Shown one piece after another: positions 10,299 to 63,911 of a stretch of 64,000 bases of DNA. A model generated the notes under the pieces. It was not told the origin of the DNA and did not search any database. It saw only the letters and a program-made list of their open reading frames with translations. Position numbers and translations under genes: made by a program. Source of the stretch: a virus (taxonomy: Duplodnaviria; Heunggongvirae; Uroviricota; Caudoviricetes); IMG/VR virus record IMGVR_UViG_3300031853_000004, positions 37,319 through 101,318 of that record; one strand, given 5' to 3'. The stretch's first letter is position 1. Each line of letters opens with the position of its first letter.

Positions 10299-10550
10299 AT
10301 GGCTAAACTTTCTGATAATGCAAAAATCGTTTTAACCTATCTAAAAGATCATGATGGTGAAGAGTTCAATCATAAAGTGATTGCTGAGGATACTGGTCTT
10401 TCACCACGCAGTGTTACAGGTACAGTAACTGGACTTCAGAAGCGAGGATTTGCAGAGCGTATTGAGACTGAGGGTAAGGAGCCCAATTTAATTCGCGCTA
10501 CTGCTGCGGGTCTTGCATTCAATGTAGATGATGATCTACCTGAGAATTAA
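10299..10550 (+). CDS. small winged-helix/HTH-like DNA-binding protein (GC-richer than surroundings)
   Basis: AAAAGGAG RBS; HTH-like segment; local GC clearly above genome background. Confidence 0.45.
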   Translation: MAKLSDNAKIVLTYLKDHDGEEFNHKVIAEDTGLSPRSVTGTVTGLQKRGFAERIETEGKEPNLIRATAAGLAFNVDDDLPEN

Positions 10551-11284: not shown

Positions 11285-11367
11285 TTGGGCAAAATTGTGT
11301 TAGTAATAATTATTAATTTTTATTTTATATAGTATAAAGTTAATAATTATTAAGAAAGGAGTATATT

Positions 11368-11553
11368 ATGACCAGACATAAAGTTGAAGAGCCAAAAACA
11401 GCTCGAACTTCTATGGCTTTTAAACAGAGTGAACTGGATACTTGGCGCAATTTTGCTACTAAAAATGGTTTTAAATCTTTTAGTGACTTTGTGCGTCAAT
11501 CTATTAATCATTATATAGATTGGAGTAAAAATGCCAAAAAGGATTGAATATAA
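11368..11553 (+). CDS. small ribbon-helix-helix-like protein (terminates TGA-ATA-TAA; TGA probably Trp)
   Basis: AAGAAAGGAG RBS; not in ORF track (<60 aa). Confidence 0.4.
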
Positions 11554-12448
11554 AAAATGAGAAGAAGTAGGTCCTTATAAATGCTTATACATAAAAGAAA
11601 GACCTAAACAAAAGAGTAGTGCAAGAAGGGCTTTATTTCTATGTGGAAGATGTGGAATTAGAGCTTTTGAAGCTCAAATTAATTCAATAAAATGTGGTTA
11701 TCAAAAAAGTTGCGGATGCGCAAAGTCCAATTATAGACCAGGTAAAATAAAAGATTTAACAGGGAAAAAATTTGGAAGATTAACTGTAATAGAGCAGGTT
11801 CCTCATAAAATAGGAGAAAGAGTAAAATGGAAATGTTTGTGTGAGTGTGGAAATGAAACAATTGTAAGTAGTGAACACTTATCTGAAAAAAATTATACAA
11901 AATCTTGTGGATGTTATGCTCTTGAACAAGCAGGGAATTATCAAATAAAAGATATAACTAACCAGCGTTTTGGTCTTTTAACTGTTTTAAAAAGAAATGG
12001 AAGTAAAAGATATAGTGATGGACATACTACAAGTTTATGAACATGCAAATGTGACTGTGGAAAGGAAAAAGATATATCTTATCATCCATTAGTTGGTGGT
12101 TTAACAATTTCTTGTGGTTGTAGAAAAATATCAGCAGGAGAATTAAAAGTAAAAACAATTTTAGAAAAATTAAATATTCCATTTGAGCAAGAATATAAAA
12201 TAGAAAATAATCAAAGATTTGATTTTTATCTTCCTGACTATAATTGTTGTATTGAATATCAAGGAGAACAGCACTATAGAGCAGTTGATTATTTTGGTGG
12301 AGAAGAAGGTTTTCAAAAATGTCAAGAAAGAGATTTTAGAAAAAAAGAATATTGTCAAAAAAATAATATAAAATTTTTAGAAATAAAATATACAGATTTT
12401 GATAAGCTTAATTTAGATTATATCTCTAATTTATTAAAGATAAGTTAA
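11531..12448 (+). CDS. putative homing-type nuclease: two zinc-finger DNA-binding modules plus a PD-(D/E)xK/DUF559-like C-terminal domain (two in-frame TGA)
   Basis: Modules GRLTV..C.CECG..SCGC and GLLTV..*.CKCDCG..SCGC; C-term RFDFYLPDYNCCIEYQGEQHY matches the DUF559/Vsr-like motif; TGA at 11558 and 12038. Confidence 0.5.
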
Positions 12449-12457
12449 AAACAACAC

Positions 12458-12486
12458 TTGACAAATTTAAAAAAATATATTATAAT
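12458..12486 (+). promoter_or_regulatory. TTGACA-N17-TATAAT promoter
   Basis: Exact hexamers. Confidence 0.5.
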
Positions 12487-12529
12487 ATAATTGTTAGATA
12501 AAACGCATGGAGAAAAGGAGATTTTGTTT

Positions 12530-13483
12530 ATGAAACAAATGACAAATCAGATTGATTTACAAGGATACGTTTTTTCAATTAGCGGGAATGGACTTTTTCA
12601 TAATACTGTAAATAATGTTGAATCAAAAATGAATGGTGTCGAATATATTAATGGTACTATTAATGTAGCAACAGATGAAGATGGTGCCAATGTAGTTCCT
12701 GTACGTTTTAATTTTGTAACCGAGAAATATGGCAAGAGTGGTAAAGAGAATCCTGCTTGGGCCGTACTTAATGATATTGAGGATGGAGATAAAACCTGGG
12801 AAGCTCAAGGTAAAGAAGGAGCTTATAAGATTCGTCTAACTTGTTCTGCAAGTTCTAATCCTTTTGTTGGTCAGGATGGTAAGATGGTTGATCGTCCATC
12901 AATTAACGTTAATTTTTCGCATCCTGCTAATAATGGTTTTAATGAGAATCAACGTAATACTTTTAAGTTTGATATGGTTATAGTAAACTTTGCAATGCGT
13001 GAAGTTGAAGATGGAGACGATTATGGCGTAATTAATGGTTATGTCTTTGATTCTTATCGTAAGGAAGCTACTCCTGTTTCACTTGTAGTACGTATGCCTG
13101 AAGCTATTTCATATTTTGAAGGACTTGATGCTTCTACTGCTAACCCAGTATTCCAAACAGTTTGGGGCAATATTGTTTCTACTACTATTCGTCGTGAGCA
13201 AGAGGTTGAGAGTGCATTTGGTGCTCCACAGATTACTTACACAACTTCTACTCAGCGTGAGTGGGTTGTAACTGGAGCTGCGATGGATCCAGGTGAGTTT
13301 GGAGACGAAGCTATTATTACTGAGGACGAACTTGTTGAGTGTCTTAATAATCACGAAAATGTAATTGCAGCAGCTCAAAAGCGTTATGATGATAAGCAGA
13401 ATGCTGGCAATGCTTTCAACGCTCCTAAACAGAATAATACTCCTAAGAAAACATTCGGTTCTGCAAGTGATTTTCAATTTTAA
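12530..13483 (+). CDS. hypothetical protein (GC-richer)
   Basis: AAAAGGAG RBS before ATG 12530. Confidence 0.45.
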   Translation: MKQMTNQIDLQGYVFSISGNGLFHNTVNNVESKMNGVEYINGTINVATDEDGANVVPVRFNFVTEKYGKSGKENPAWAVLNDIEDGDKTWEAQGKEGAYKIRLTCSASSNPFVGQDGKMVDRPSINVNFSHPANNGFNENQRNTFKFDMVIVNFAMREVEDGDDYGVINGYVFDSYRKEATPVSLVVRMPEAISYFEGLDASTANPVFQTVWGNIVSTTIRREQEVESAFGAPQITYTTSTQREWVVTGAAMDPGEFGDEAIITEDELVECLNNHENVIAAAQKRYDDKQNAGNAFNAPKQNNTPKKTFGSASDFQF

Positions 13484-16136: not shown

Positions 16137-16227
16137 GGAGTATTGGCCGAGTGGTTGAAGGCAACTGCCTAGAAAGCAGTAGAATGATAATCGCGTTCCG
16201 GAAGTTCAAATCTTTCATGCTCCGCCA
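16137..16227 (+). tRNA. tRNA-Ser (type II, long variable arm, G73), anticodon read as AGA
   Basis: Cloverleaf folds by hand: acceptor GGAGTAT/ATGCTCC, D-arm GCC-GAGTGGTTGAA-GGC (near-identical to E. coli tRNA-Ser), anticodon stem ACTGC/GCAGT with loop CTAGAAA, long variable arm, T-loop TTCAAAT, encoded CCA. Confidence 0.75.
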
Positions 16228-21931: not shown

Positions 21932-21972
21932 AGGTTGTTGAGTGTAAGGCTTGACAACCTTTATTTTTTATG
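21932..21972 (+). terminator. terminator hairpin (AGGTTGT...ACAACCT + T-run) embedding the next -35
   Basis: Inverted repeat then TTTATTTTTT. Confidence 0.45.
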
Positions 21973-21979
21973 ATATAAT
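21951..21979 (+). promoter_or_regulatory. TTGACA-N17-TATAAT promoter
   Basis: Exact hexamers. Confidence 0.5.
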
Positions 21980-21993
21980 ATTATAGAAAATTA

Positions 21994-22010
21994 GGGCAAA
22001 ATATTATAAT
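21994..22010 (+). promoter_or_regulatory. GGGCAA-N5-TATAAT motif (candidate phage-specific promoter)
   Basis: TAGGGCAAAATATTATAAT; same architecture at 38763-38779(-) and 63883-63900(-). Confidence 0.4.
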
Positions 22011-22078
22011 TTATTTATTCAATCTTTTATTAATTATATAGAGAAATAAAAGAGATTAAATTAAATAAAGGAGTGCTT

Positions 22079-22927
22079 ATGGGAACTCGACAAGAAATTA
22101 ACAATATATACCAAAAATATTATCACAAAGATTTTCCTTCTTCTACTTTATCAAAATGGAAAAAGGAAGGAAAAATAAAAGCTGTTAAGGAAGGTAATTT
22201 TTATAACTATGATTTAGAGAGTTTTGAACAATTAATTTTAAGTGATGAATATAAAAAGAAAATTAGAGCTTCAAAATTAAAGCCAGAAGATTTTATCGGA
22301 AAACGATGTGGAGATTTATTAATTAAAAGTATTGTTCCAAAAGAAGAGTATAAAGAAAATTATATTGGAACTTTAATGTATTGCGATTGTTTAAGATGCG
22401 GAAAATCAAAAAATATTCAGGTAAGATTTTCATATTTATCTGGAAATGGTAATTATCAACAGACAACTTGTGGTTGTGGGAGGAAAGAAAGAGCATTTCT
22501 AGCTTCTGCAAGGCAAGATATACGTGAAGAGTTTTTAATTCAATTTAGAGATAATTTTGAACATTACTTATTTTTACATAAATTTTTAACAACCTCTGTT
22601 ACAGAAAAATATTTTACTTCTTGTCCGATTGAAGAATATGAACAAGCTATTTTATCTTTAGATAAAGATAAACAGTTTAATGCGGTTTATAACTTTTGGA
22701 AAAAACAAGATAGAACTTCTACTTTTTATGATTTAGCTAAACCTAGTTTAGATCATATTATACCAAAAAGTAAAGGTGGAAGCAATGATTATTCTAATTT
22801 ACAAGTTTTAACAGTGTTTGAGAATTTATGTAAAAGAGATATGACTTGGGACGAGTGGCAGCTTTTTAAAAAAAATACTAATACTCAATCAGATTTTTTT
22901 ATTGAAAATATATTAAAACAATATTAA
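22079..22927 (+). CDS. HNH homing endonuclease with zinc-module DNA-binding region
   Basis: DHIIPKSKGGSNDYSNLQ..N HNH motif; CDCLRCG/TCGCG modules like the 11531 gene. Confidence 0.6.
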   Translation: MGTRQEINNIYQKYYHKDFPSSTLSKWKKEGKIKAVKEGNFYNYDLESFEQLILSDEYKKKIRASKLKPEDFIGKRCGDLLIKSIVPKEEYKENYIGTLMYCDCLRCGKSKNIQVRFSYLSGNGNYQQTTCGCGRKERAFLASARQDIREEFLIQFRDNFEHYLFLHKFLTTSVTEKYFTSCPIEEYEQAILSLDKDKQFNAVYNFWKKQDRTSTFYDLAKPSLDHIIPKSKGGSNDYSNLQVLTVFENLCKRDMTWDEWQLFKKNTNTQSDFFIENILKQY

Positions 22928-27303: not shown

Positions 27304-27396
27304 AAAATCATAGGGCAAAAATGAATTAATACTATATATTGATTTTATATATATTAATAGAGGTAAAAAATACAAAATATAGTATAGGAGGTTTAT

Positions 27397-27594
27397 ATGA
27401 TTACTTTATATTCAACAGGTTGTCCTCGCTGTAAAGTTCTGACGCAAAAGCTGGATGCCGCAAACATCAGTTATTCAATCAGTAATAATATTGATGAAAT
27501 TATGATAAAAGGATTTATGTCCGTTCCAGTTCTTAAAGTTGATGATGAATATATGGACTTTGGAACTGCAATTAAGTGGGTGAACAATCAATAA
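27397..27594 (+). CDS. NrdH/glutaredoxin-like redoxin
   Basis: CPRC active-site motif; 65 aa; GGAGG RBS; sits upstream of nrdD. Confidence 0.55.
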   Translation: MITLYSTGCPRCKVLTQKLDAANISYSISNNIDEIMIKGFMSVPVLKVDDEYMDFGTAIKWVNNQ

Positions 27595-29519
27595 TGAAAA
27601 TTAATGTAAAATTAAGTAAAAATTTTCAAACACAATTAAATCGTCTTAACGAAAAATATGGTGAAGATTTTGCAAAACTAAATGGCTTAAGTGAAAGCGA
27701 TTTAGATTTTACAAATTTTATTGATAATTTTGTAGATGAAGATACCGTTGCAGACGTTTCTGTAGATGGTAATGCGAATGTGGGTCATAAAGATATTGTA
27801 ACTATGATTAACGAAATGCCTAAAGCTCATCAGAAGTTACTTGCATTTAATAAATTATATTATGAAATGCAAAAAAAATATGGATTTAAAGAAGCAAATA
27901 AATGGTTAGAGCTTGAATGGACTAAAGCACTTGGTATGCATGACGCGCATTCAAGTACAGAAACAAGCTATTGCTTCGCCTATGATTTAAAAGACTTGGC
28001 AGAAAAAGGTCTATATTTTATTGAAAACTTTAATGCAGAACCTCCGCAACATTTAGCAACTTTTGTTGATTTTGTAAAAGAGCATTGTTCTTACGCATCT
28101 AATAGAAGTGCTGGCGCAGTAGCCTACCCAAATTTAATTCCTTACTTCTATTACTTTTGGAAAAAAGATATAGAAAATCATTATATGGGAATTACAGAAG
28201 AATATGCAGAAGATTTTGCGAAGCAGCAAATTCAAAGATTAATATACTCATTAAATCAGCCATTTCTCCGTAACTCAATTCAAAGTGCTTTTACTAATAC
28301 AAGTATATTTGATCATCCATATTTTGAAGCTATTTTTGGTGGAGCAATTTTCCCAGATGGTTCTTTTATGATAGATAGTGAAGAAGAGATTATAGAATTT
28401 CAAAAAATATTCTTAACAGAAATGAGCGACATTAGAAGTCAAAATATGATGACTTTTCCTGTGAACACCATTTCACTTCTCACTGACATTAATGGAAACT
28501 TTGTAGATGAAGATTTTGCAAAATGGGCTTGTGAGCATAATAGAAAATGGAATGATAGTAATTGGTTTGCAGATAGTTCAGTAACTTCTTTGTCATCCTG
28601 CTGTAGACTTCGTAATGATATTCAGGAGCTTGGCTATACTAATAGTATTGGCGGGGCAGCTTTAAAAGTTGGTAGCGTGAAAGTTTCTACTATTAATCTT
28701 GCAAGAATAGCTTATCAAAGTCAAAATGAGCAAGAATATTTAGCGTTACTTAAAGATACAGTTGAAACTAATTGTAAGATTCTTGATGTTCAAAGACATA
28801 TTATTCAAAGAAACATTGAAAAAGGACTTTTGCATAATTTTGATACAAAAATGGTTGAAATGAAATATCTTTATTCTTCACATGGAATTTTAGGTTGTTA
28901 TGAAACAATGAAATATTTTGGTTATACCTATGAAGATGAATTAGGTAATACTTACTATAAAGATGAAGCATATGACTTCGGAAGAAAAATATTTAAAATT
29001 ATTCATGCAGTAAAAGATGCTTTCCTTGCAGATAAAGATTATCATATGAATCTTGAAGCAATTCCTGGAGAGACAATGGCTGCCAGATTTCAGCATGCAG
29101 ATGAAATGCTTTATCCAGATCAAGTAATTAAAGATTTGCCGCTATATGCTAATCAATGGATTGGACTTGGAATAAAAACTACCATCCAAGAGAGAGTAAA
29201 AATAGCTGCCGCCTTTAGCGAATATTGCTCAGGAGGTGACATCTTACACATAAACGTAGATGCGCCATTTGATTCATTTGATAAAGCATGGAAAATGTTA
29301 AACTATGTCGCGCAAGCTGGGGTTAAATATTTTGCTTTTACTGGTAAAATTAATGCTTGTGAAAATAATCATGGTTTTTATGGAGATATATGTCCTATAT
29401 GCGGCAAACCTGTAAAAACACAATATGCCAGGATTGTGGGTTTCTTTGTCCCCATCCAGACTTGGAGCCAAACTAGAAAACAAGAATTTGCTATGAGAGA
29501 ATGGGCTAATGTTAATTAA
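27594..29519 (+). CDS. nrdD: anaerobic ribonucleoside-triphosphate reductase
   Basis: C-terminal Zn ribbon CENNHG..CPICG and glycyl-radical motif RIVGFF; ATGA overlap with upstream stop. Confidence 0.7.
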   Translation: MKINVKLSKNFQTQLNRLNEKYGEDFAKLNGLSESDLDFTNFIDNFVDEDTVADVSVDGNANVGHKDIVTMINEMPKAHQKLLAFNKLYYEMQKKYGFKEANKWLELEWTKALGMHDAHSSTETSYCFAYDLKDLAEKGLYFIENFNAEPPQHLATFVDFVKEHCSYASNRSAGAVAYPNLIPYFYYFWKKDIENHYMGITEEYAEDFAKQQIQRLIYSLNQPFLRNSIQSAFTNTSIFDHPYFEAIFGGAIFPDGSFMIDSEEEIIEFQKIFLTEMSDIRSQNMMTFPVNTISLLTDINGNFVDEDFAKWACEHNRKWNDSNWFADSSVTSLSSCCRLRNDIQELGYTNSIGGAALKVGSVKVSTINLARIAYQSQNEQEYLALLKDTVETNCKILDVQRHIIQRNIEKGLLHNFDTKMVEMKYLYSSHGILGCYETMKYFGYTYEDELGNTYYKDEAYDFGRKIFKIIHAVKDAFLADKDYHMNLEAIPGETMAARFQHADEMLYPDQVIKDLPLYANQWIGLGIKTTIQERVKIAAAFSEYCSGGDILHINVDAPFDSFDKAWKMLNYVAQAGVKYFAFTGKINACENNHGFYGDICPICGKPVKTQYARIVGFFVPIQTWSQTRKQEFAMREWANVN

Positions 29520-33515: not shown

Positions 33516-34367
33516 ATGTCTGAAAAAATGACAGTCCAAGAGTTCCATGATGAAATTTGGTGGCCACGTTGTTTAAAAAATTTAAGAGAATGTACGCAAG
33601 TAGGATATGATAGTGCATATAGACTACATATTGCCCCTTTTATGAAAGATAAATATCTTACTGAAATTACTCCTAGATATTTAGACCATTGGTTTAAAGA
33701 AGGTAATATTAAAGCTTCTACTTGGAAAATTTTCAAAGCAATGATTAGAGTGGCATATAAACTTGAATTAATTCCTACTGATCCGTGTGATAAGGTTCTA
33801 GATGCTCCTCCAAGAGGGACACCAAATCCTCCAACTCTAAATAGAATTGAGATGCAACAAATGTTAGATGGTCTTACTGATGTTCCATATTACGCGGCAA
33901 TTGTTTGTTCTGCAACGATGGGACTTCGTAGAGAAGAATCTTGCGGACTTCGTTGGGAAGATTTTAATTGGAGAACTAATGTTGTCCATATTCAGAGAGG
34001 TATGCAATTTGTAAATGGGCATATTGTTGTTGGCCCTACAAAGACTGTTATGAGTAATCGCAAATTACCAATGCCGCAAGATTGTATCGTTAGACTTTTA
34101 CCTATTAGAAAAGAAGAAGGATATATCATTGGTGATTTAAATCCTTCTCAAGTAGCTGGAAGATATAGAAGAGCTTGCATTTCTAGAGGACTTCCATATG
34201 TTCCCATGTCTAATCTACGGACCTCTTGGTGCACAATGTTAATTGGAGAAGGAGTTCCAGTTAGTAAAGTTAGTAGATATATGGGTCATACAGATGTTTC
34301 TACCACTGTTAGATGGTATACTAAACCTAGAGAAGATGAATTAATTGATGTTGCTGCATCTTTTTAA
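33516..34367 (+). CDS. tyrosine site-specific recombinase (Xer/Rci/integrase family)
   Basis: GLRREE (Arg I), NLRTSWCT (box II), SRYMGHTDVSTTVRWY (catalytic Tyr); no TGA; GAAAGAAGG RBS. Confidence 0.7.
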   Translation: MSEKMTVQEFHDEIWWPRCLKNLRECTQVGYDSAYRLHIAPFMKDKYLTEITPRYLDHWFKEGNIKASTWKIFKAMIRVAYKLELIPTDPCDKVLDAPPRGTPNPPTLNRIEMQQMLDGLTDVPYYAAIVCSATMGLRREESCGLRWEDFNWRTNVVHIQRGMQFVNGHIVVGPTKTVMSNRKLPMPQDCIVRLLPIRKEEGYIIGDLNPSQVAGRYRRACISRGLPYVPMSNLRTSWCTMLIGEGVPVSKVSRYMGHTDVSTTVRWYTKPREDELIDVAASF

Positions 34368-35258: not shown

Positions 35259-35295
35259 AAACCCCTTGACTTATCACTCAAGTCAAGGGGCTTTT
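35259..35295. terminator. bidirectional terminator (CCCCTTGACTT-loop-AAGTCAAGGGG) ending the minus-strand late unit
   Basis: 11-bp stem, A7 before and T6 after. Confidence 0.55.
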
Positions 35296-38762: not shown

Positions 38763-38779
38763 ATTATAAAAAATTGCCC
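38763..38779 (-). promoter_or_regulatory. GGGCAA-N5-TATAAT motif promoter (minus strand)
   Basis: Minus strand reads TAGGGCAATTTTTTATAAT upstream of gene 37978..38661. Confidence 0.4.
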
Positions 38780-38892
38780 TAGAAATTTTTTAAAGAAGCT
38801 TAAAATTTTAAATTTTATTAACTTTTACATTGTCTCATGAGATCCTTTTGGATTGCTTATAATAAATCTATCTAATATAAAGACTTATGTTG

Positions 38893-42912: not shown

Positions 42913-44019
42913 TTATTCAACTGTAACAGTTCCAGCAGTGCCAGTAAATGTAGGCTGTGATACTGTACCAGCAGGAGTAAATCCTTCTGTTTCAAGGTGA
43001 GCCCCTGTACCTGTAAAGGTAGGTTGAGAAACTGTGCCTTCAGGAACAAAATCCGTCTCAATTGTTGCGGTAGTGCCTGCAAATGCACCTGTAAGTTCAA
43101 CGCCTGTACCACTAAAGGTAGGTTGTGATACACTACCGGCAGGAGTGTAAGTAGCAGTTAGACGAGTACCAGTGCCGGTAAACGCTGGAGTACTAGCAAG
43201 CTCAGCAGAAGCACTTGTCATTACTGTAGTAGCTGTTCCAGCAGTTGGAAGAGTACCTTGACTAAACCCAATAGTAAGAGTTTCATTGGCAACAGTTGTT
43301 GTTAATTCAGGAAGAGTTCCTACACTAGCAATTGGAGTAACAGAAGTTGTAGAAGGAGTTACTGTAATATCTGGCTTAGAAACGCTACCTGCGGGAGTGT
43401 AAGTAGCAGTACCAGCTCCGCCAGAAACTGCGATTGTAGCTTCTGTACCTGAGAACGAAGGCTGAGTTACTGTACCAGCAGGAGTATAATTAGCAGCGCC
43501 AGTACCAGTTCCAATAGAAACATTACCAGCAGGGGTATAGGAAGCACTTCCTGTACTTGTTGCTCCAGTAAAGGTGGGTTGAGAAACTGTACCCGCAGGA
43601 GTATATGTGGCATCACCAGAACCTGCGCTAACTTCTAAACCAGTATTAGCTGTGCCAGTAAAAGTGGGTTGAGATACAGTGCCAGAAGGTGTAAAGCTAC
43701 CTGTCGCAGAACTCTTAAAAGCTAAAGCTCCAAGAGAACCTAAATCACCAAACTCATGCCATTTATTATCAATATCAGAAAATACAAATTCTTTATCACC
43801 TTTAATTGCTACATCACCTGCGACAGCAGTAACATTTTGAGAATCAATTACAATTGGATTAGTTGTACTGCCATCTGCAATGTCGCTTGTAGTTACACCA
43901 AGAAAATGCAGTGCACCACTCAAGGAACCTGTTAAAGTTTCGATATCTTGACGTGCTTGAGCGTCTTTAATTGTATAAGTCGATCCACTAGGGAGCGTAA
44001 TTTGAGAAATATCTGCCAT
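42913..44019 (-). CDS. structural (fibre/decoration-like) protein with about eight tandem 15-aa repeats (YTPAGTVSQPTFTGT)
   Basis: Tandem repeats at protein and DNA level; GGAGG RBS. Confidence 0.55.
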   Translation of the reverse strand: MADISQITLPSGSTYTIKDAQARQDIETLTGSLSGALHFLGVTTSDIADGSTTNPIVIDSQNVTAVAGDVAIKGDKEFVFSDIDNKWHEFGDLGSLGALAFKSSATGSFTPSGTVSQPTFTGTANTGLEVSAGSGDATYTPAGTVSQPTFTGATSTGSASYTPAGNVSIGTGTGAANYTPAGTVTQPSFSGTEATIAVSGGAGTATYTPAGSVSKPDITVTPSTTSVTPIASVGTLPELTTTVANETLTIGFSQGTLPTAGTATTVMTSASAELASTPAFTGTGTRLTATYTPAGSVSQPTFSGTGVELTGAFAGTTATIETDFVPEGTVSQPTFTGTGAHLETEGFTPAGTVSQPTFTGTAGTVTVE

Positions 44020-44037
44020 GTTATTCGACCTCCTTTA

Positions 44038-44478
44038 TTAATTAGAATAAACCACGTCTGCGGCAAGTATAAGTCTTACCTCTCCAGAACCAGAATTAAT
44101 TTCATCTACTATTGGTGCAGCATATGCTTTAACATGTCTTTGAATACTTAAAAAATCTACCATTGGTAAATCAATTATATAAGCACTTCCATCACCAATT
44201 TTTACACCAACTTGATCTCCATTAGAATCTGTTACTATATAAATAGCACCTCTTTTAGAAACTATTCCTATTAAGGCTGACATTTGAGATTCTGTATAAA
44301 TATAAGTTGGTTGGGCGCCTATCCGCAGACGTTTAATACCAGAGTCTACATATAACTCTCCTCTAGTTAGGCCGTTAACGGCAGCTTCTCCTGTGTCAAC
44401 GACGTAAATGGCGCCATCATGTTGTTCTTGAGGTAAGGAGGATTCAGAGCCGCGAAAGAATTTAACTTGACTTGGCAT
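44038..44478 (-). CDS. hypothetical structural protein
   Basis: AAAGGAGG RBS; TAA stop. Confidence 0.5.
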   Translation of the reverse strand: MPSQVKFFRGSESSLPQEQHDGAIYVVDTGEAAVNGLTRGELYVDSGIKRLRIGAQPTYIYTESQMSALIGIVSKRGAIYIVTDSNGDQVGVKIGDGSAYIIDLPMVDFLSIQRHVKAYAAPIVDEINSGSGEVRLILAADVVYSN

Positions 44479-44553
44479 ATAACCTCCTTTTAAATAAATA
44501 AACTAAGAAGGGAGGAAAAAATTTTTTCTCCTCCCAAGATATTACAAATAAAA

Positions 44554-46128
44554 TTAAGCTAAGCTGCCCCACTGTAATGCTGCATCGGTGTAAGCTTTAG
44601 CATTAGCTTCCGCAGCAGTAGCAGAACCAGCAGCGTCAACGGCAACACTATCAATTGCAGTAATTTCACCATCAACTTGAGTAACACCAGTTACAACAGC
44701 AACGGCATTAGTATCCGTATCAGCAACACTAAGGGCTGCATCAAGATCTGCATCAAGAGCTTCAACAGCTGTGGTAACAGCATCGTCAGCATAAGCTTTA
44801 GCACCATAGATAGTATTAGCAGAAGCCGCATCAGTGCTAGCGCCAATTACAGCAGCTTTAGCACGAGTAGCTGCACCGGCAGCATCGGCAGCAACACTAT
44901 CAACACCAGTGATGATACCAGCAACCTCTGTTACGCCAGTAACTACTGCAACAGCTTCAGCATCTGTATCACCAGCACCAAGAGCAGCATCAACATCAGC
45001 ATTAAGTGAGCCAACGCCATCGCCAACTTTCTCATCTACATAACCAACGACAGTTGTAGCTTGAGAAGTACCAGGAATAGCGCCAATAGTATCAAGCGCA
45101 GCAGCTGCTGTTGTCTGACCATAAGCTACATTAGCAGCAGTAAGAGCAACTTCGTCAACGCCAGTAATAACACCGTCAACCTCGGTGATACCAGTAATTA
45201 CTGAACCAGCAGTAGCATCAACATCAGCATCAAGAGCACCAATGGCCGCGGCAATTTTACCATCGACACCGGTGGAAGCGGCAGTCTCAAGAGCATTGAT
45301 AGCTTGAGCTACTGTCTGCTTAGCAACGTACCCATCCTCACCAGGAGTACCAGACTCAGCACGATAAACAATCTTGGAAGCCGCAATCTCTCCAACAGTA
45401 GCAGAGATTGTATGGTTTGTATCAGTTAGAGTGATTTCATCTGTGCTCTGAACAGCATTATACTCAATTAGGTCAGCAACAGGGATGTAGAAAGGTGTAC
45501 CATTTGCAATGGTCATCTTAATGAATGTGCCTGCATTACCCTGACCGTCTTCATTAACAAGCTCACCATTAGTAGCAACCATATCTTTAGAGATATCAAT
45601 TGTACCATTGGTAATAGCAACGCCACCTTGACTAAAAGTATAACGAGTAGCAAAATCATCATTTGTACCACCAGTTGTTTTAGTAACAGTTACAGCAGAA
45701 GCACTCTGTGCGGTACCAATTTTACCAACAATTTCAGCAAGAGCAGCTTCTACGTTAGTAGAGTCAAGATTGCCAGCAGTATCAACAACAGCTACATCTG
45801 CGGCAGTACCGCTTTTAGCTACAGCAGCAAGAGAATTGTCAAGTGTTTCAACAAGACCTGTAACTGTTTCATCACCAGCCGCAATTGACTTATCAATGTA
45901 ATCAATAAGATCAGTATACCCAGCATCTACAGGGAGTGTACCAATCTGCTCACGAAGGAGAGCAAGATCAGCAGCAGCACTTGAAGAGCCACCGTCATAA
46001 AGAACTGTACCCTTATAGATCTGATGCGTACCAGCAATAAAATAAATTGTATTAGCATCAAAAGCTGCAATTTGCTCGGCTGTTACTGTACCAGGAACAT
46101 AGACAAATTTAACTAAATTAGTAGCCAT
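44554..46128 (-). CDS. GC-rich Ala/Val/Thr/Asp-rich structural protein with three about 39-aa repeats
   Basis: Repeats DADVDA..AVVTGVTEV.G.ITG.DSVA; about 50% GC in a 30% GC genome; no TGA. Confidence 0.55.
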   Translation of the reverse strand: MATNLVKFVYVPGTVTAEQIAAFDANTIYFIAGTHQIYKGTVLYDGGSSSAAADLALLREQIGTLPVDAGYTDLIDYIDKSIAAGDETVTGLVETLDNSLAAVAKSGTAADVAVVDTAGNLDSTNVEAALAEIVGKIGTAQSASAVTVTKTTGGTNDDFATRYTFSQGGVAITNGTIDISKDMVATNGELVNEDGQGNAGTFIKMTIANGTPFYIPVADLIEYNAVQSTDEITLTDTNHTISATVGEIAASKIVYRAESGTPGEDGYVAKQTVAQAINALETAASTGVDGKIAAAIGALDADVDATAGSVITGITEVDGVITGVDEVALTAANVAYGQTTAAAALDTIGAIPGTSQATTVVGYVDEKVGDGVGSLNADVDAALGAGDTDAEAVAVVTGVTEVAGIITGVDSVAADAAGAATRAKAAVIGASTDAASANTIYGAKAYADDAVTTAVEALDADLDAALSVADTDTNAVAVVTGVTQVDGEITAIDSVAVDAAGSATAAEANAKAYTDAALQWGSLA

Positions 46129-47582: not shown

Positions 47583-47830
47583 ATGTTACACCTCCTCTCG
47601 ACTATAAAACAGTTCTTTAACTTTCTTTTCTGTTTTAATACAAGTGTTTACGCTCTAATGATAAAAATATAATAAATCAATCTTAATTCTTGATAACCGC
47701 TTATTAGATATTTCTTGTATTCTTTTGGAGTAAGGAGGTAATTAGCTTTAAAACTATATCGCCAATGTTGCTTTAAAGAACTAAAAGCACATTTTTTTCT
47801 CTTGTCTCCAAATATATATAAAAAAATAAA

Positions 47831-47858
47831 GGGCAAAATTATTCAATTTTGCCCTAAG
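47831..47858 (-). terminator. hairpin made of two inverted GGGCAAAAT motifs plus a T-run (terminator for the minus transcript)
   Basis: GGGCAAAAT-TATTCA-ATTTTGCCC with T-rich tail on the minus strand. Confidence 0.5.
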
Positions 47859-48651: not shown

Positions 48652-50925
48652 TTATCTCCAAACATCAACCAATTCCATTTCAGAGTTTTTATTTGGACTA
48701 ACTTCAAAATAAAATCCTTTTCTATGTATAGCATAATCTGACGGAATTTCTTGTCCATTCTCTTTAACCTTTAATTGCATAGAAGCATCACTGCTTGACC
48801 AAGAGCCCGCATATTTTCATCCACGTCTATTTTCACTAGTTCCATTTGATTGTCCTTGGAAATCATAAAAATAAGAATCACCTTTATGGAAAATAATTTG
48901 TCCCATTCTATCTTCTATTGGAATAGCATTTAAATCATCGGCTTCTCCGATTTGATAAATAAAAATATGTCCGTTCATATATGGATTTTTTTCTTTATCA
49001 TTAACTATTCAACTGCTATTTAAAATATCTAAAATTTGTTCAATATTAAGATTATCTCAATCTAAAGGATTTTCTCCAATAGCAATTCTATATGCATCGT
49101 GTCTAGAAGTATTTAATTCAGAAGCAACTCTAACTCCATTAACCGTCTGCTTTACGACCCCTAAATCCTGTCACCAAGATCAATCTTCTTCTTCAGTTCC
49201 AATAGAGTCAGGTAAGTCTCCACCTTTATATCAAACAGCTCCATCTTCTTCGATATGAATATATCTAATATTTTGAATATAAAATTCTCCTTCATTATCT
49301 GCATTACCTATATAACGATATTCGGAAGAAGAATATAAAACATATAAATGTCCATCATTTCCTACAAACATATCTTCAATAAAATTTAAGAAAGTAGGAT
49401 TTTCAAAACTTCTATACTCTTCTTTAGATTGATTCATATAGGGTTCAAGAATTGCATTAACAGGATCTGTATGATATTTAATTTCTTTAGTTTCTTCATC
49501 TATAGCAATCCCATCTATATGAAATAATGAAAACCCTGGTATATCTTTAGGACGTGTCTCATCTGTATATCTTGCTTGTAACATTTTTTCAGTATAGTCA
49601 GAATTATTAACAATTTGAAGAGACTCTAAAAATCTTAAAGGAGAAAAGTTCTTCTCTTCCCCAGTATTATAAGTAATCTTAAAAGAGTCTAAAACATTAT
49701 TTTCTTTACTAGAAAACATTTCTGTTTTATTAATTCATTTTAAAGTATTAAGAGTTTCACTATTCCCAGATGAATATTCAATATTAAAAGAACCATCATC
49801 TTCCAATTTAATATTTTGTATGTCAGTAATTTTACCAAGATAACAAGTAACTATTTTAGTTTTATTATCTGTATCATAATCTTTATCATACATGTAAAAA
49901 GTATAAACAAGAATAGAGCTGTCCGCACTTAAATTATCTTCTTCAAATTGCGGATAATCACCTTGATAATCTCTAATATCAAACTGACCTGTTTCACTAT
50001 TATATAAATCTTTATAATCATAAAGAATTTCTGTTTTTTCAGAGTTTGCATTAATAAAATCTCCAAAAGAAACTCTTCTTATAAAACCGACTTGGTTACC
50101 TTTTGTTCCTCTTGGAATACCAATATTCCATTTTTGATAAAAAGGCTGTCTACCATCTAAAAATTCATTTTCATTAATAAAGTTAGTATATAAAGTATTT
50201 TCTTTTCAATCAATATCTGAAAAATTAAAATCAAAGATTGTATAAGGAACTTCAAATCCTAAATATACATAAGTTTCTTGGTCTTCCCCATCAATGTTAT
50301 TTCTTACATTTACTCAAGAATATTTTATTCCTGTTTGATATTCGCCTGTTTCAGTGTCATATCCAGGGACAAGACCATTATCTTTTTTAGCTAACAGCTT
50401 TTGAATATTACCGCCATTATCTTTATAATTTAATTCATTTATGTCTTCTACATATGTATCATCTTGAGATGCGCCATCTTCATTAATAGGATAAATATAT
50501 TCTGAATCTCCAGCTTTAGTGTAAGAATTTTTTACTCTTGTAATCATACTTCCAAGAGAACCAATCTCTACACGAGGATACCCTTCGGATGGTCCTACAA
50601 TTCTACCTATATATTCTCCATGTAAAGTTCCGCCATCTATTTGAATTTCTGATTCTTCTCTTGGAAGAACTCTGCGGAAAAGCTTGCCATTATTAGGATT
50701 CCTTTTATTCGTTGTATCAATAATAGCTAGTTGTCCATATCAAACTTGCTCATATGAACTATCTGCAAAGCATCTCTCCATTGTTTGTTCTTTTAAGACA
50801 TTATCTGCTATCCCATCATTTACTGCTTTTTGATATGCAGGATCATTAGTGTCTACATATTTAAATCTTGCTTTAACAACTGGGGAAACGCCTTGTTTAC
50901 CACCATAAAAACTTTCTAAAGACAT
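48652..50925 (-). CDS. large late structural protein (757 aa, many TGA), baseplate/tail-like
   Basis: GAGGGGG RBS; ORFs 50740..50925, 50314..50547, 49231..49719 in one frame; 48661-49230 translated by hand to TAA 48652; Trp-rich stretches (EEDWSWW). Confidence 0.5.
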
Positions 50926-51926: not shown

Positions 51927-54224
51927 TTATAATCTTTCCGCGACTTCATTTAATACTACTGACATATTAGCACCAGGACCAAAAGATAAATTAATATTTT
52001 GAATCATGAAGTCTCCATAGGTATTTGTACTATTACTGCTTAATTCAACTCTACTATTAGGAGCTAAATAAAACACTGGGATAGACGTAATAGAAACTGT
52101 CTTTTGATATCTTGTGTGACAAAAAAGTTCATACCTAATAGCTTCATATGCACTGTTCTTATATCCCCCAATATCAAGATTAGAATATATCTCATTACCA
52201 ACTTGTGTTCACGGTTGAGTATTTAAAATACATTCATGTCTTTGTAAAGCTAATAACTTTGTCTCTTTAGTTAATTTCTCTGGTTGCCCGCCAAAAACTT
52301 CTCTATATTTATTATTGAGTTCACTTTCAGTAAGTAGACCCGCAGTATTTTCTGTCCAATTCTCCTCTGGATTATCTTTATTTAAAAAAATAACATTTGG
52401 AATCTCTGGAATAAAGAGACAATTAACTTTATCATCTACTACAATATCTTGTCTGCGGCCAATCGCTTGTATACTATACTCTCCAAGAGCAGCAGAGTTA
52501 GCATCAATAAAATCTAAGAAATAATTGCCCTCTGTCAAACCATATCTAATAATTTTATCATCTTCTCCAAAGAAATGTTGATTATTAGGATCTAAACAAT
52601 ATTCTAATGGTCAAAAAGCATTAAGTTCTTGATAGTAATAGCCAGCGTCCACACCATTGTTCTCAGCTTCTAATCCTTGTAAATATAGTTCTGTTCTTCA
52701 ATCTCTTGAATAATATTTTATTGGAGAAACTAGTTTAGACTCTTTATCCTCATTTATAAAAACTAGTTTTTTATAAGTAGTCCCATCCCAATAATAAACA
52801 ATATTATTAACATAATATAATTTATCAAAATTACCTACATCTGGTAATTTATTCATATATTGCACAATACCTAGTTTGTTTACTTGCTTAATATCATTTT
52901 CTCTAGTATCTGTGTAATAAACAACATTTTCATGCACACCGTAATATGCACCTTTATTATCTACATCTATAATCTGCGGCTTGTCGTCAATTGCTAAATG
53001 ATATCTAACAGTATATTTTATATCAGAGCTAGTCCCTTGCCGCAATCCTTCTATAATATAATCATTTTTAATATTTTGATATTGCGGAGTTACTGTGATA
53101 GAAGTTACATTAACATCGTCAGTAAAAGAGTACAAGGTTTTTTCATTTGTTACCTCTATTAAATATTGATTTTCAGATTGCTCATCTAACAGAAAATTGC
53201 CCCCACCAAATTTTATTCTTCTTCCGGGGTTCTGCATTTCTTCTTCTATGATTTGTGCTTGAGTAATATTTAAATAATTTTTAATTTCTCTAAAAATAAA
53301 AACACCAAACTCATTAAAAAAATATTCATAATTTCCTAAGATATTTTTTATTTGATCCAATATAGATGTTATTGTATTACCAGCAGCTCCTACTAACTCA
53401 TCTAATACCACAAAATCTTTATATATATAACCGACATCTTCTCCTGTTGTATATTCTTGTCATGAATGATCTCCTGGATGATTATCTGTTGTATATATCC
53501 AATTGTCCGTCTCTGTCTCTGCGCTAATATTTTTTCCATATAAGTTATTTTTTCCTGTCCATTTCATCACTTGACGTATTCTTAAAGGAACATCTTGAAT
53601 GATAATGTTAGCAATATCGATTCCGCCATAATGATTAACCAACTCAAGAATAATATTATAAATTAAAACTTTTTGTTGAGTTCATTCTCCACTTGGTAAC
53701 TGAGTATCCATCATATCAAATCTAACTGAAGCAGGAAGTTTTCCACCTATATCTCCATTTAAAAGACACATTTTATCTTTTAGAGAAATATTTAAATTAA
53801 TTGCAGAAGTACTGGAAGAATTTAAAGAAAAATCTGATATTAAAAATATACCTTGAGGGAATCATAATATCGGTCAATCTAAATATTGATCAGTTTCATT
53901 CTTTACACCAATTTCAATAAAAACTTTTTTATTTAAAGAAAAATCCATATTTAATGAATCAATATTATATTCTTCTGCGCTAACGGTACAAGAAAGACTG
54001 CCAGTAACTCTAACAGGAGAGGCTCCATCTTTTGATAAAGAGCCTCCTGAAATAATACCTTGAACATCTTTTAAAGGATTTTCTTCTCAATCCAATAAAG
54101 TAATTTGTATATATTGCCGTTGATTCACAAAATTATCTAGTTGTTTTAAAAAATTTCTTTTATTTTGTTCCTCATTTAAATTATAAACATATTGTTCTTG
54201 AAGATATGGATATTGTTTTCTCAT
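51927..54224 (-). CDS. large late structural protein (about 765 aa, several TGA)
   Basis: AAGGAG RBS; ORFs 53460..53642, 52698..53411, 52209..52538 in one frame; 51921-52208 translated by hand to TAA 51927. Confidence 0.5.
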
Positions 54225-54334
54225 TTTTTGCTCCTTATCTTCTATTCATATTTAATATTGACAATGTTGCCACGATAATTTACCATGCCATAAACTGGAA
54301 CATCCGCCAATATTAATGTTTTATTTTTTTCATC

Positions 54335-57300: not shown

Positions 57301-57784
57301 TATTTGGAATAGCTTTTATTAAACAAACACTTGACCATTCAGAAAAATATTGTCTATTTTCTTGTAAATATGTTGTAGATGTAGGAGTAGTTGTAGAGCT
57401 ATCTAATCTAATTTGTACTTTGTAATAACTATCTACCACAAAACCATCTTTATCTCCCTTGAGAAGTTCTCTTGGAATATCAATAGTACAAACATTATTA
57501 ACGGCATCTACTGTTAAAACACTTGTACCGTTTATATTAAAAGGAATGATTCAAATGTTATCAAGTAAAATTTGATCAACACTAGCAGGTAAAGCTTTTG
57601 AATTATTTTCAAAAGCACTTTGGTTAGTTCTTTGATTAACTAAAGACACATGTATTTTTTTAATATCTCCTAAACTATTATAAGGAGAAAAAGAAAAGGA
57701 AACGGGAGCCGGCCCTTCATATTGAAAAGCCGACATGAAAGTATCAATTAAAGGAGGATATAGTGTACTTACTATAGTAGCCAT
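54335..57784 (-). CDS. giant late structural protein (about 1149 aa, at least 9 TGA)
   Basis: GGAGG RBS; eight ORF fragments in one frame; three gaps translated by hand contain only TGA; TAG stop at 54335. Confidence 0.5.
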
Positions 57785-63791: not shown

Positions 63792-63826
63792 TAAAAAAAC
63801 GGGAAGAGTAGATTATACTCTTCCCG
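63792..63826 (-). terminator. strong hairpin + T-run (GGGAAGAGTA-loop-TACTCTTCCC) between a promoter and the giant gene
   Basis: 10-bp stem; minus strand reads the hairpin then TTTTTTTATTT. Confidence 0.5.
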
Positions 63827-63882
63827 CAAATAAAATCCTTTTATAATCTCACTCTTTAATAATTGAAAATTAAAGTATACAG

Positions 63883-63900
63883 ATTATAGAATTTTGCCCT
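63883..63900 (-). promoter_or_regulatory. GGGCAA-N5-TATAAT motif promoter (minus strand)
   Basis: Minus strand reads TAGGGCAAAATTCTATAAT. Confidence 0.4.
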
Positions 63901-63911
63901 AAAATTTTTAT

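What the first reader, a model, noticed from the sequence alone, without database searches (positions are those of the whole stretch)
21994..22010. Recurrent TAGGGCAAAAT-N4/5-TATAAT motif: candidate phage-specific promoter class
GGGCAA followed 5 nt later by TATAAT occurs at 21994(+), 38763-38779(-) and 63883-63900(-). Weaker -10 versions occur at 11287(+), 27313(+) and as both arms of the 47831-47858 hairpin. Orientation always matches the downstream gene. The 5-nt spacing excludes a normal -35. Early promoters in the same window are canonical TTGACA-N17-TATAAT, so this looks like a second promoter class, perhaps for a phage sigma or activator, or an operator. At 21951-22010 a canonical promoter and a motif promoter sit in tandem.
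Basis: seen in the sequence. Interest (0 to 1): 0.6.

Follow-up and report, generated by a model that had tools for sequence, protein, structure and literature searches.

The report
Conserved phage-specific promoter-like element
A roughly 50-base signal, repeated in the gaps before late genes of an uncultivated 130-150 kb phage family and conserved in its relatives, is most likely a second class of promoter that needs a phage-made helper protein; it is real and new in sequence, but phages often have such signals.

Summary
GGGCAA-N5-TATAAT occurs 3 times against 0.07 expected. The refined motif TAGGGCAAAAW-N3-ATAAT has five strong copies (21992+, 27311+, 38781-, 47856-, 63901-). All are intergenic and point the same way as the next gene. 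A sixth copy lies just outside the window.

The element is larger than reported. Exactly 17 nt after ATAAT there is a second -10-like hexamer (yAwwwW), usually behind a T-run. A purine run (AGAG) follows 4-6 nt later, as it does after the window's canonical -10s.

Copies are kept at orthologous positions in relatives with 44-60% protein identity: upstream of Trx-NrdD, of a 1835-aa structural gene and of the lysis cassette. Several copies are built into terminator hairpins.

Thirteen perfect TTGACA-N17-TATAAT promoters all lie in the early/replication block. The minus-strand late block, whose genes carry in-frame TGA (=Trp), has none between genes.

Best reading: a factor-dependent middle/late promoter class. 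This register is inferred, and 5'-end mapping would decide it. No sigma, RNA polymerase or activator was identified.

Rivals are a lambda-Q-like arrangement, an RNA-level antitermination site and an operator.

The parts
21992..22043 (+). Composite copy 1. Box TAGGGCAAAAT 21992-22002; hex1 ATAAT 22006-22010; 17-nt spacer; hex2 TATTAA 22028-22033; purine run AGAG 22040-22043. It lies 13 nt downstream of the -10 of a canonical promoter (21951-21979) and upstream of the HNH endonuclease gene 22079-22927.
   Evidence: (28.9 bits)
27311..27363 (+). Composite copy 2, the weakest. Box TAGGGCAAAAA 27311-27321; hex1 ATTAA 27325-27329; T-run plus AT-rich hex2 around 27343-27352; AGAGG 27359-27363. It lies upstream of thioredoxin (27397) and NrdD (27594-29519).
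   Evidence: 20.9 bits. Orthologous copies upstream of Trx-NrdD in L016, L017, L027, L032-34, L159-161, L165, L168 and L182
38731..38781 (-). Composite copy 3. Box TAGGGCAATTT 38781-38771; hex1 ATAAT 38767-38763; hex2 TATATA 38745-38740; AGAG 38734-38731. It lies upstream of the 227-aa gene (38661-37978) that heads the cluster containing the holin gene (37805-37548).
   Evidence: 23.5 bits; holin. A degenerate ortholog AAGGGACAAAAATAGTAAT with AGAGAG at the same distance is present in L036-38
47806..47856 (-). Composite copy 4, built into a terminator. Box TAGGGCAAAAT 47856-47846; hex1 ATAAT 47842-47838; hairpin AGGGCAAAATT/AATTTTGCCCT 47855-47830 (-13.6 kcal/mol), followed by a T-run that doubles as the T-run before hex2 TATATA 47820-47815; then GGAGAC. 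It lies between the end of the structural operon (gene end 47863) and the 331-aa gene (47582).
   Evidence: (30.3 bits). Analogous terminator-embedded copies at L032 3981, L036 3029 and in many IMG/VR relatives
63852..63901 (-). Composite copy 5. Box TAGGGCAAAAT 63901-63891; hex1 ATAAT 63887-63883; hex2 CAATTA 63865-63860; AGAG 63855-63852. It lies between the stop codon of the upstream gene (about 63911) and the 1835-aa TGA-containing structural gene (63770-58263).
   Evidence: 29.3 bits. Orthologs in L022, L023, L029 and L031 with identical 27-nt spacing to AGAGTGAG
63793..63857 (-). Conserved leader AAAGAGTGAGATTATAAAAGGA (63857-63836), then an intrinsic-terminator hairpin (63826-63800, -19.5 kcal/mol) with a T-run (63799-63793), ahead of the ribosome-binding site and ATG at 63770.
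   Evidence: Nucleotide identity is 81% across relatives whose proteins are 44-57% identical. The stem is invariant and the loop varies
11285..11295 (+). Doubtful or degenerate copy. TTGGGCAAAAT without ATAAT at the right spacing, upstream of small TGA-containing ORFs 11368-12448.
   Evidence: Below 12 bits

Best explanation
The motif is the upstream half of a roughly 50-bp, phage-specific middle/late promoter. Its layout is: box TAGGGCAAAAW, 3 nt, ATAAT (hex1), 17 nt (13 variable plus usually TTTT), a weak -10-like hexamer yAwwwW (hex2), 4-6 nt, then a purine-rich start (AGAG / AAGA / GGTAAG).

I propose that host RNA polymerase uses hex2 as the -10 and starts in the purine run. The 19-bp box-plus-hex1 element would then span about -48 to -30, where a -35 hexamer would normally lie. 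A phage-encoded specificity factor would bind it, either a class-II-type activator or a sigma-appropriation or sigma-like protein made from the early genes.

This would switch on the TGA-recoded structural genes, the lysis cassette and a few genes in the replication block (HNH, Trx-NrdD). Where the 13 variable spacer bases have become complementary to the box, the same DNA also encodes an intrinsic terminator, so one unit ends and the next begins on the same 50 bp.

Shown: the element, its statistics, its anatomy, its placement and its conservation. Inferred: that it is a promoter, which hexamer is the -10, and that a phage factor exists.
For: - Enrichment: 3 matches against 0.07 expected. Five sites of 20.9 bits or more, with a clean gap to background.
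- Placement: all five sites are intergenic (7% of the window) and co-oriented with the next gene.
- Division of labour: the 13 perfect canonical promoters all lie at 1-33.5 kb. No canonical promoter lies between genes in the late block at 35-64 kb. The motif occupies 3 of the 5 large gaps in that block.
- Orthologous conservation at three independent sites, in relatives with 44-60% protein identity, while the intervening bases diverge.
- Downstream half: the 17-nt spacing, the T-run, the A at hex2 position 2 and the purine run were not part of the search matrix, yet they recur in 19 of 19 sites found in 668 kb of protein-anchored loci.
- Start-site geometry: the purine fraction 5-10 nt after hex2 is 0.80. 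After hex1 it is 0.32, and after the canonical -10s it is 0.65.
- Terminator-then-motif order in L016 and L017. Terminator-embedded copies keep the T-run exactly where non-hairpin copies have it.
- The same composite recurs in IMG/VR contigs of 88-146 kb that encode a polymerase 47-54% identical to the window's.
Against: - There are no transcript data, so the start site is inferred.
- hex2 is a poor sigma-A -10: T at its last position in only about half of the copies. hex1 is far better conserved and looks more like a -10.
- No sigma, RNA polymerase or late activator was found. The only DNA-binding candidates in the window are an 83-aa winged-helix protein (10299-10550) and a tyrosine integrase (33516-34367).
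- At 63901 a strong terminator lies between the element and its gene, so extra antitermination or read-through must be assumed.
- The element is missing at the orthologous sites of some relatives (L026; the lysis site of L033; the Trx-NrdD site of L036).
- GGGCAAAA...TTTTGCCC is also a common terminator stem in the family, sometimes without ATAAT.
Confidence: 0.5

Rival explanations
1. hex1 (T)ATAAT is the real -10, and the GGGCAAAA box at -25 to -15 is bound by a factor that loads onto RNA polymerase. The second -10-like hexamer, about +12 to +17 in the transcript, is a sigma-dependent pause site. The overall arrangement is like lambdoid late promoters (PR' with the Q-binding element, a promoter-proximal pause and tR').
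For: - hex1 is the best conserved -10-like sequence: A, T, A, A in 12-13 of 13 copies.
- A -10-like repeat at a fixed distance downstream matches what Q-type systems use for pausing (established knowledge of lambda, 82 and 21).
- The 63901 copy is followed about 50 nt later by a strong terminator conserved in five relatives, like PR'-tR'.
- More terminators lie inside the late block.
Against: - There is no -35 and no TG extension, so the promoter could not be constitutive as PR' is.
- The bases 5-10 nt after hex1 are pyrimidine-rich (purine fraction 0.32), unlike this phage's canonical start regions.
- Only one of the five window copies has a terminator soon after it.
- No Q-like protein was found by the Pfam and PHROG scans of window proteins.
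Confidence: 0.2
2. The box works in RNA, not DNA. It would be a strand-specific binding site for a phage antiterminator (nut- or RAT-like). Such a factor would prevent the overlapping hairpin from forming or make the polymerase ignore downstream terminators. Alternatively the element is simply a family of terminators and their remnants.
For: - Orientation follows transcription.
- The 21992 copy lies at +7 of a canonical promoter's transcript.
- Many copies form the left arm of a terminator hairpin.
- At 63901 a terminator follows.
Against: - In the five orthologs of the 63901 site there is no right arm, yet box and ATAAT are conserved while the 13-nt spacer drifts. This is the opposite of what a decaying hairpin would show.
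- In L016 and L017 the box lies after the terminator's T-run, where an antitermination site would be useless.
- An RNA site does not explain the fixed 17-nt spacing to a -10-like hexamer and the purine run that follows it.
Confidence: 0.12
3. The box is an operator, or a 'stoperator' as in mycobacteriophage L5. A repressor would bind this asymmetric site and block transcription, for example in a lysogen.
For: - It is an asymmetric site in short intergenic gaps, oriented with transcription.
- At 21992 it sits just downstream of a canonical promoter's start, a typical operator position.
- The window encodes a tyrosine-recombinase-family protein. In SPbeta the master repressor MrpR has that fold and binds a repeated promoter element (PMC10516654).
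Against: - Only one of the five sites is next to a canonical promoter.
- The window's integrase shows no similarity to MrpR (E = 0.076), and no homolog of it was detected in any related locus examined.
- The SPBRE-like element of this phage is the stereotyped canonical promoter itself, not this motif.
- Operator function would not need hex2 and a purine run at a fixed spacing.
Confidence: 0.1

Closest known systems
T4 MotA/AsiA-dependent middle promoters (sigma appropriation)
   Same: Both have a phage-specific box in place of the -35 hexamer, combined with a host-type -10. Both are used for a later temporal class, while early genes use canonical promoters.
   Different: The MotA box is 9 bp (TGCTTtA type), centred at -30, 11-13 bp from the -10. 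Here the upstream element is 19 bp and bipartite (GGGCAAAA plus ATAAT), ending 17 bp from hex2. No MotA or AsiA homolog was seen.
Class-II activator-dependent phage promoters (lambda cII at PRE/PI; Mu Mor and C at about -43)
   Same: There is a weak -10, no usable -35, and an activator site that overlaps the -35 region at a strictly fixed spacing.
   Different: The sequence is unrelated: cII uses TTGC-N6-TTGC, and Mor and C use dyads. The host is a low-GC Gram-positive-type organism. The factor is unknown.
SPbeta SPBRE / MrpR system (Bacillus phage SPbeta)
   Same: The window's replication module is colinear with SPbeta yorE-yorL. SPbeta also carries a repeated element at about ten promoters.
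   Different: SPBRE is a sigma-A promoter (TAGACAAA-N-ATATGTATATAAT). Its counterpart here is the canonical TTGACAAA...TATGATATAAT class. The GGGCAA motif is absent from the 50 kb of SPbeta that was searched.
Lambdoid late promoter PR' with Q-binding element, promoter-proximal pause and tR'
   Same: There is a box next to a -10, a second -10-like hexamer downstream, and at one site a terminator about 50 nt further on.
   Different: There is no -35. Only one window site has the terminator. No Q homolog was found. The hosts of known Q systems are enterobacteria.
Mycobacteriophage L5 stoperators
   Same: Both are asymmetric repeated sites in intergenic gaps, oriented with transcription.
   Different: Stoperators number 20-30 per genome, are 13 bp long and have no attached -10-like hexamers or start-like purine run.

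Membership tests
Canonical sigma-70/sigma-A promoter | -35 hexamer TTGACA-like, 16-18 bp upstream of the -10 | tested here: not met
   With hex1 taken as the -10, the hexamers at the -35 position are TATAGA, ATAAAA and AAAAAT (my reading). With hex2 taken as the -10, that position holds nATAAT, a 2/6 match.
Canonical sigma-70/sigma-A promoter | -10 hexamer TATAAT-like, with a purine start 5-8 nt downstream | tested here: inconclusive
   Both hex1 (ATAAT) and hex2 (yAwwwW) are -10-like. Only hex2 is followed by a purine run like the one after the canonical promoters.
Extended -10 promoter | TG at -15/-14 | tested here: not met
   The base at the corresponding position is A or T in all 17 copies; G never occurs there.
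Sigma-54 (-24/-12) promoter | GG at -24 and GC at -12, as TGGCAC-N5-TTGCW | tested here: not met
   GGGCAA-N5-TATAAT has the same spacing and a GGCA core, but the near-invariant -12 GC is absent in every copy.
SPbeta SPBRE (MrpR operator) | Sequence TAGACAAA...AATATGTATATAAT at early promoters, bound by an MrpR-like repressor | tested here: not met
   The SPBRE sequence was read from SPbeta. The motif has no match above chance in SPbeta. The window's integrase is not similar to MrpR.
Promoter of a YonO-type phage RNA polymerase | A YonO homolog encoded by the phage, and transcription of late genes that depends on it | tested here: inconclusive
   tblastn found no YonO hit in the window or in 1.65 Mb of family loci. 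However, those loci are fragments and the rest of this genome was not available. The YonO promoter sequence is not defined in the literature (PMC5467207).
Lambdoid Q-dependent late promoter | A Q protein, a Q-binding element, a sigma-dependent pause and a downstream terminator | tested here: inconclusive
   A downstream -10-like hexamer is present in all copies, and a terminator at one site. No Q-like family hit was found in the proteins scanned. Pausing cannot be tested with these tools.
Intrinsic terminator | GC-containing hairpin followed by a T-run | tested here: not met
   Met only at 47856 (-13.6 kcal/mol). The other four window copies fold at -0.4 to -5.7 kcal/mol.

The most novel reading that the evidence does not exclude
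The composite may be the promoter of a phage-encoded, non-canonical RNA polymerase of the YonO (single-chain, two-barrel) kind. The gene would lie in the part of the genome outside the window. No promoter sequence has yet been defined for such an enzyme. In that case the terminator-embedded copies and the terminator in the late leader would reflect an enzyme that ignores hairpin terminators. This rests on one link only: the replication module is colinear with SPbeta, whose late genes are transcribed by YonO.
Probability: 0.1. Interest if true: 0.75.

Novelty: new variant of a known kind. Interest (0 to 1): 0.5.

Why it matters
- It gives a concrete, testable handle on gene regulation in an uncultivated family of large (roughly 130-150 kb) phages recovered from metagenome assemblies. 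These phages read TGA as tryptophan in their late genes.
- The element marks where later transcription units probably start. It suggests that an unidentified phage-encoded specificity factor exists.
- It shows a compact design in which a single 50-bp stretch encodes both a terminator and the next promoter.
- If the element is confirmed as the late promoter class, the timing of the TGA-recoded genes could be linked to one defined switch.
- It would also help annotate related metagenomic phages.

Tried and rejected
- Chance: rejected by shuffles and by the weight-matrix gap.
- SPBRE equivalence: rejected. SPBRE corresponds to the canonical class.
- Sigma-54: same spacing, but the -12 GC is missing.
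- Extended -10: no TG.
- Rfam: no family in the window except a tRNA.
- Literature search for the sequence string: nothing relevant.
- Exact-pattern scan of IMG/VR with TAGGGCAAAATNNNTATAAT: only unrelated single hits, mostly coding.
- A looser composite pattern did find the family. About a third of its hits are a coding-sequence artefact (a conserved protein motif), and its hits are biased towards ATAAT loops.
- Search for the cognate factor:
  - PHROG and Pfam scans of 60 window ORFs found no sigma, RNA polymerase, Q, MotA, or late-activator-like (RinA/ArpU-type) family.
  - The 220-aa protein next to the 11285 site has no regulator-like hit.
  - SPbeta YonO, YonN, MrpR, AimR and others have no tblastn hit in any family locus.
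  - The YonO searches of the protein database and of IMG/VR were swamped by Bacillus relatives and could not reach this family.
- The exact SPbeta YonO start site could not be mapped onto the phage record, so no comparison with it was made.

Full report
**1. Observation.**
GGGCAA-N5-TATAAT is present exactly where reported: 21994-22010(+), 38779-38763(-) and 63899-63883(-). That is 3 matches against 0.07 expected from dinucleotide shuffles. Reading all 20 GGGCAA occurrences in context refines the motif to TAGGGCAAAAT-N3-ATAAT. It matches perfectly at 21992(+), 47856(-) and 63901(-), and with two mismatches at 38781(-).

A weight matrix built from window and relative copies gives five window sites of 20.9-30.3 bits: 21992+, 27311+, 38781-, 47856- and 63901-. 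Everything else scores below 12 bits, apart from the opposite arm of the 47830-47855 palindrome at 13.4 bits. Shuffled windows give 0-3 hits of 12 bits or more.

The copy at 300(+) is antisense inside an ORF. A sixth, perfect copy lies about 8 kb beyond the left edge of the window in the same phage (L024 13839).

**2. What the window is.**
The plus-strand block at 2.3-33 kb encodes replication functions:
- topoisomerase II, ligase, a YorF-like protein and Sak4;
- DnaB, primase and RecJ;
- an inserted HNH endonuclease;
- a DnaE-type polymerase, thioredoxin, NrdD and dUTPase.

The order is colinear with Bacillus phage SPbeta yorE-yorL.

The minus-strand block at 35-64 kb looked fragmented under the standard code. 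When TGA is read through, it resolves into large contiguous genes. Examples are 58263-63770 (1835 aa, 21 in-frame TGA), 54242-57784 (11 TGA), 51927-54224 (8 TGA) and 48652-50925 (10 TGA). The replication genes have no in-frame TGA.

In relatives these TGA codons align mainly with TGA or with Trp. This is the known pattern of late-gene stop-codon recoding in phages (PMC11210395, PMC10879173). The block ends with a holin-containing cluster, so it holds the late genes (structural and lysis).

No cultured phage is close. The best polymerase matches are 36-38% identical. The structural proteins have essentially no matches.

**3. Two promoter classes.**
Thirteen perfect TTGACA-N16-18-TATAAT sites lie in intergenic gaps. 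All are at 1-33.5 kb and co-oriented with the next gene. They have stereotyped spacers (cTTGACAAA...TATGATATAAT). These are the counterpart of SPbeta's SPBRE promoters, which I read from the SPbeta sequence as TAGACAAA-N-ATATGTATATAAT (PMC10516654).

In the late block there is no canonical promoter between genes, and sigma-70-like matches are at shuffle level. The GGGCAA motif occupies three of the five gaps of 60 nt or more in that block. The other two gaps hold only terminators.

All five strong sites lie in the 7% of the window that is intergenic and point the same way as the next gene.

**4. Anatomy.**
Aligning the copies shows that the motif is only the upstream half of a composite. The layout is:
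- box T(A/T)GGGCAAAA(A/T);
- 3 nt;
- ATAAT (hex1);
- 13 variable nt;
- TTTT (AAAA, AAGA or AATA in the Trx-NrdD orthologs);
- yAwwwW (hex2), with A at position 2 in 16 of 17 copies;
- 4-6 nt;
- a purine run (AGAG, AAGA, GGTAAG or GAAA).

The hex1-hex2 spacer is therefore 17 nt throughout. These downstream features were not in the search matrix. They nevertheless recur in all 19 distinct sites found in 668 kb of loci that had been fetched through proteins and not through the motif.

**5. Conservation in relatives.**
- **Trx-NrdD site (27311).** The element is kept upstream of thioredoxin-NrdD in L016, L017, L027, L032-34, L159-161, L165, L168 and L182. Their polymerases are 54-55% identical to the window's and their NrdD is 58-60% identical. 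In L016 and L017 it directly follows the T-run of the polymerase terminator.
- **Late site (63901).** Four relatives have the box, ATAAT and exactly 27 nt to AGAGTGAG. The bases in between diverge. The whole non-coding stretch is 81% identical, although the flanking protein is only 44-57% identical.
- **Lysis site (38781).** L036-38 have a degenerate copy (AAGGGACAAAAATAGTAAT) with AGAGAG at the same distance.
- **Absent.** L026 lacks the element at both sites examined, L033 lacks it at the lysis site, and L036 lacks it at the Trx-NrdD site.
- **Wider family.** A looser composite pattern found many further copies in IMG/VR contigs of 88-146 kb. Nine of those contigs also appear among the polymerase relatives at 47-54% identity. 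About a third of the pattern hits are a coding-sequence artefact.

**6. Terminator-embedded copies.**
At 47856 the box is the left arm of an 11-bp hairpin (-13.6 kcal/mol). ATAAT spans the loop and the start of the right arm. The terminator's T-run is the same T-run that precedes hex2.

L032 3981 and L036 3029 have the same design with different stems (-20.7 and -20.2 kcal/mol). So do 18-20 distinct IMG/VR sites. The 13 'free' spacer bases are the ones that have become complementary to the box.

GGGCAAAA...TTTTGCCC stems without ATAAT also exist, so the box is additionally a favoured terminator arm. However, the four other window copies do not fold (-0.4 to -5.7 kcal/mol). In the late-site orthologs the box is conserved with no right arm at all. 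The box therefore has a function other than hairpin formation.

**7. Mechanism.**
I read the composite as a factor-dependent promoter and favour hex2 as the -10. Three arguments support this register:
- The hex2-to-purine-run geometry matches this phage's canonical promoters. The purine fraction 5-10 nt downstream is 0.80 after hex2, 0.65 after the canonical -10s and 0.32 after hex1.
- The strictly fixed distance between the box-plus-hex1 element and hex2 plus the start is what an upstream recognition site requires.
- Conserved leaders begin at the purine run.

In this register hex1 sits at -34 to -30 and the box at about -48 to -38. That is the position of a class-II activator or of a sigma-appropriation factor.

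Against this register, hex2 is a weak -10 and hex1 is much better conserved. Combined with hex2 as a sigma-dependent pause site and the terminator at 63826-63800, it would resemble lambdoid PR'/Q.

An RNA-level antitermination site and an operator ('stoperator') are weaker rivals, for the reasons listed under each.

No sigma, RNA polymerase, Q, MotA or late activator was found in the window. The only DNA-binding candidates are an 83-aa winged-helix protein (10299-10550), which has a homolog in L027, and a tyrosine integrase (33516-34367), which is not MrpR-like.

SPbeta's late RNA polymerase YonO has no detectable homolog in the window or in 1.65 Mb of family fragments. Those fragments do not cover whole genomes, and the YonO promoter is not defined in the literature (PMC5467207).

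**8. Verdict.**
The 'second promoter class' interpretation is the best-supported reading but remains unproven. Its proposed anatomy (TATAAT as the -10, with the box 5 nt upstream) is probably incomplete and possibly mis-registered.

In kind this is a familiar thing: a phage-specific later-class promoter. It has a new sequence, a bipartite upstream element, an unknown factor and a neat terminator-promoter overlap, and it belongs to an uncultivated TGA-recoded phage family. Interest is moderate.

Noticed in passing
window 39386-63770 (-) and 11531-12448 (+): In-frame TGA codons (up to 21 per gene) occur in the late structural genes and in one plus-strand ORF, while the replication genes have none. 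The TGA codons align with TGA or Trp in relatives, so this is late-gene TGA-to-Trp recoding. No suppressor tRNA lies in the window.
   Followed up: partly
window 63793-63857 (-): A highly conserved leader AAAGAGTGAGATTATAaAAGGA and an invariant-stem intrinsic terminator lie between the motif and the 1835-aa gene. This stretch is more conserved than the flanking protein (81% nucleotide identity against 44-57% protein identity). It could be an attenuator, an antitermination target or a small RNA. It has no Rfam match.
   Followed up: partly
window 60, 2237, 2327, 3142, 3957, 10254, 12486, 16306, 21979, 26867 and others (coordinate of the last base of the -10): The early promoters are unusually stereotyped (cTTGACAAA-N-TATGATATAAT, 13 perfect copies). 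They resemble SPbeta's SPBRE promoter/operator element, so they may also carry an operator for a master repressor.
   Followed up: partly
window 22079-22927 (+) and 11531-12448 (+): An HNH endonuclease gene is inserted between RecJ and the polymerase, with its own tandem promoters. A Cys-rich 305-aa ORF with two in-frame TGA sits in an otherwise 'empty' 1-kb gap. Both look like mobile endonuclease insertions.
   Followed up: no
window 16137-16227 (+): A tRNA-Ser (anticodon AGA, long variable arm) lies inside the replication module, followed by a hairpin and a canonical promoter.
   Followed up: no
L024 5620-15279 (same phage, beyond the window's left edge): This stretch holds a TROVE/Ro60-like plus VWA gene, tRNA-Gly, tRNA-Lys, several tRNA-like fragments each behind a canonical promoter, and a GC-richer non-coding stretch of about 1 kb (12400-13430) that looks structured. 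It may be a Ro60/Y-RNA-like module.
   Followed up: no
window 44000-46000: GC content is 42.6% here, against about 30% elsewhere. The stretch coincides with a 524-aa gene (44554-46128) that is 69-72% identical in relatives but matches no PHROG or Pfam family. It may be a highly expressed structural protein.
   Followed up: no
window 33516-34367 (+) and 35259-35293: A tyrosine integrase with its own canonical-like promoter sits at the junction of the two convergent blocks, next to a bidirectional terminator. No homolog of it was detected in any related locus examined, so it appears to be an accessory gene of this phage.
   Followed up: partly
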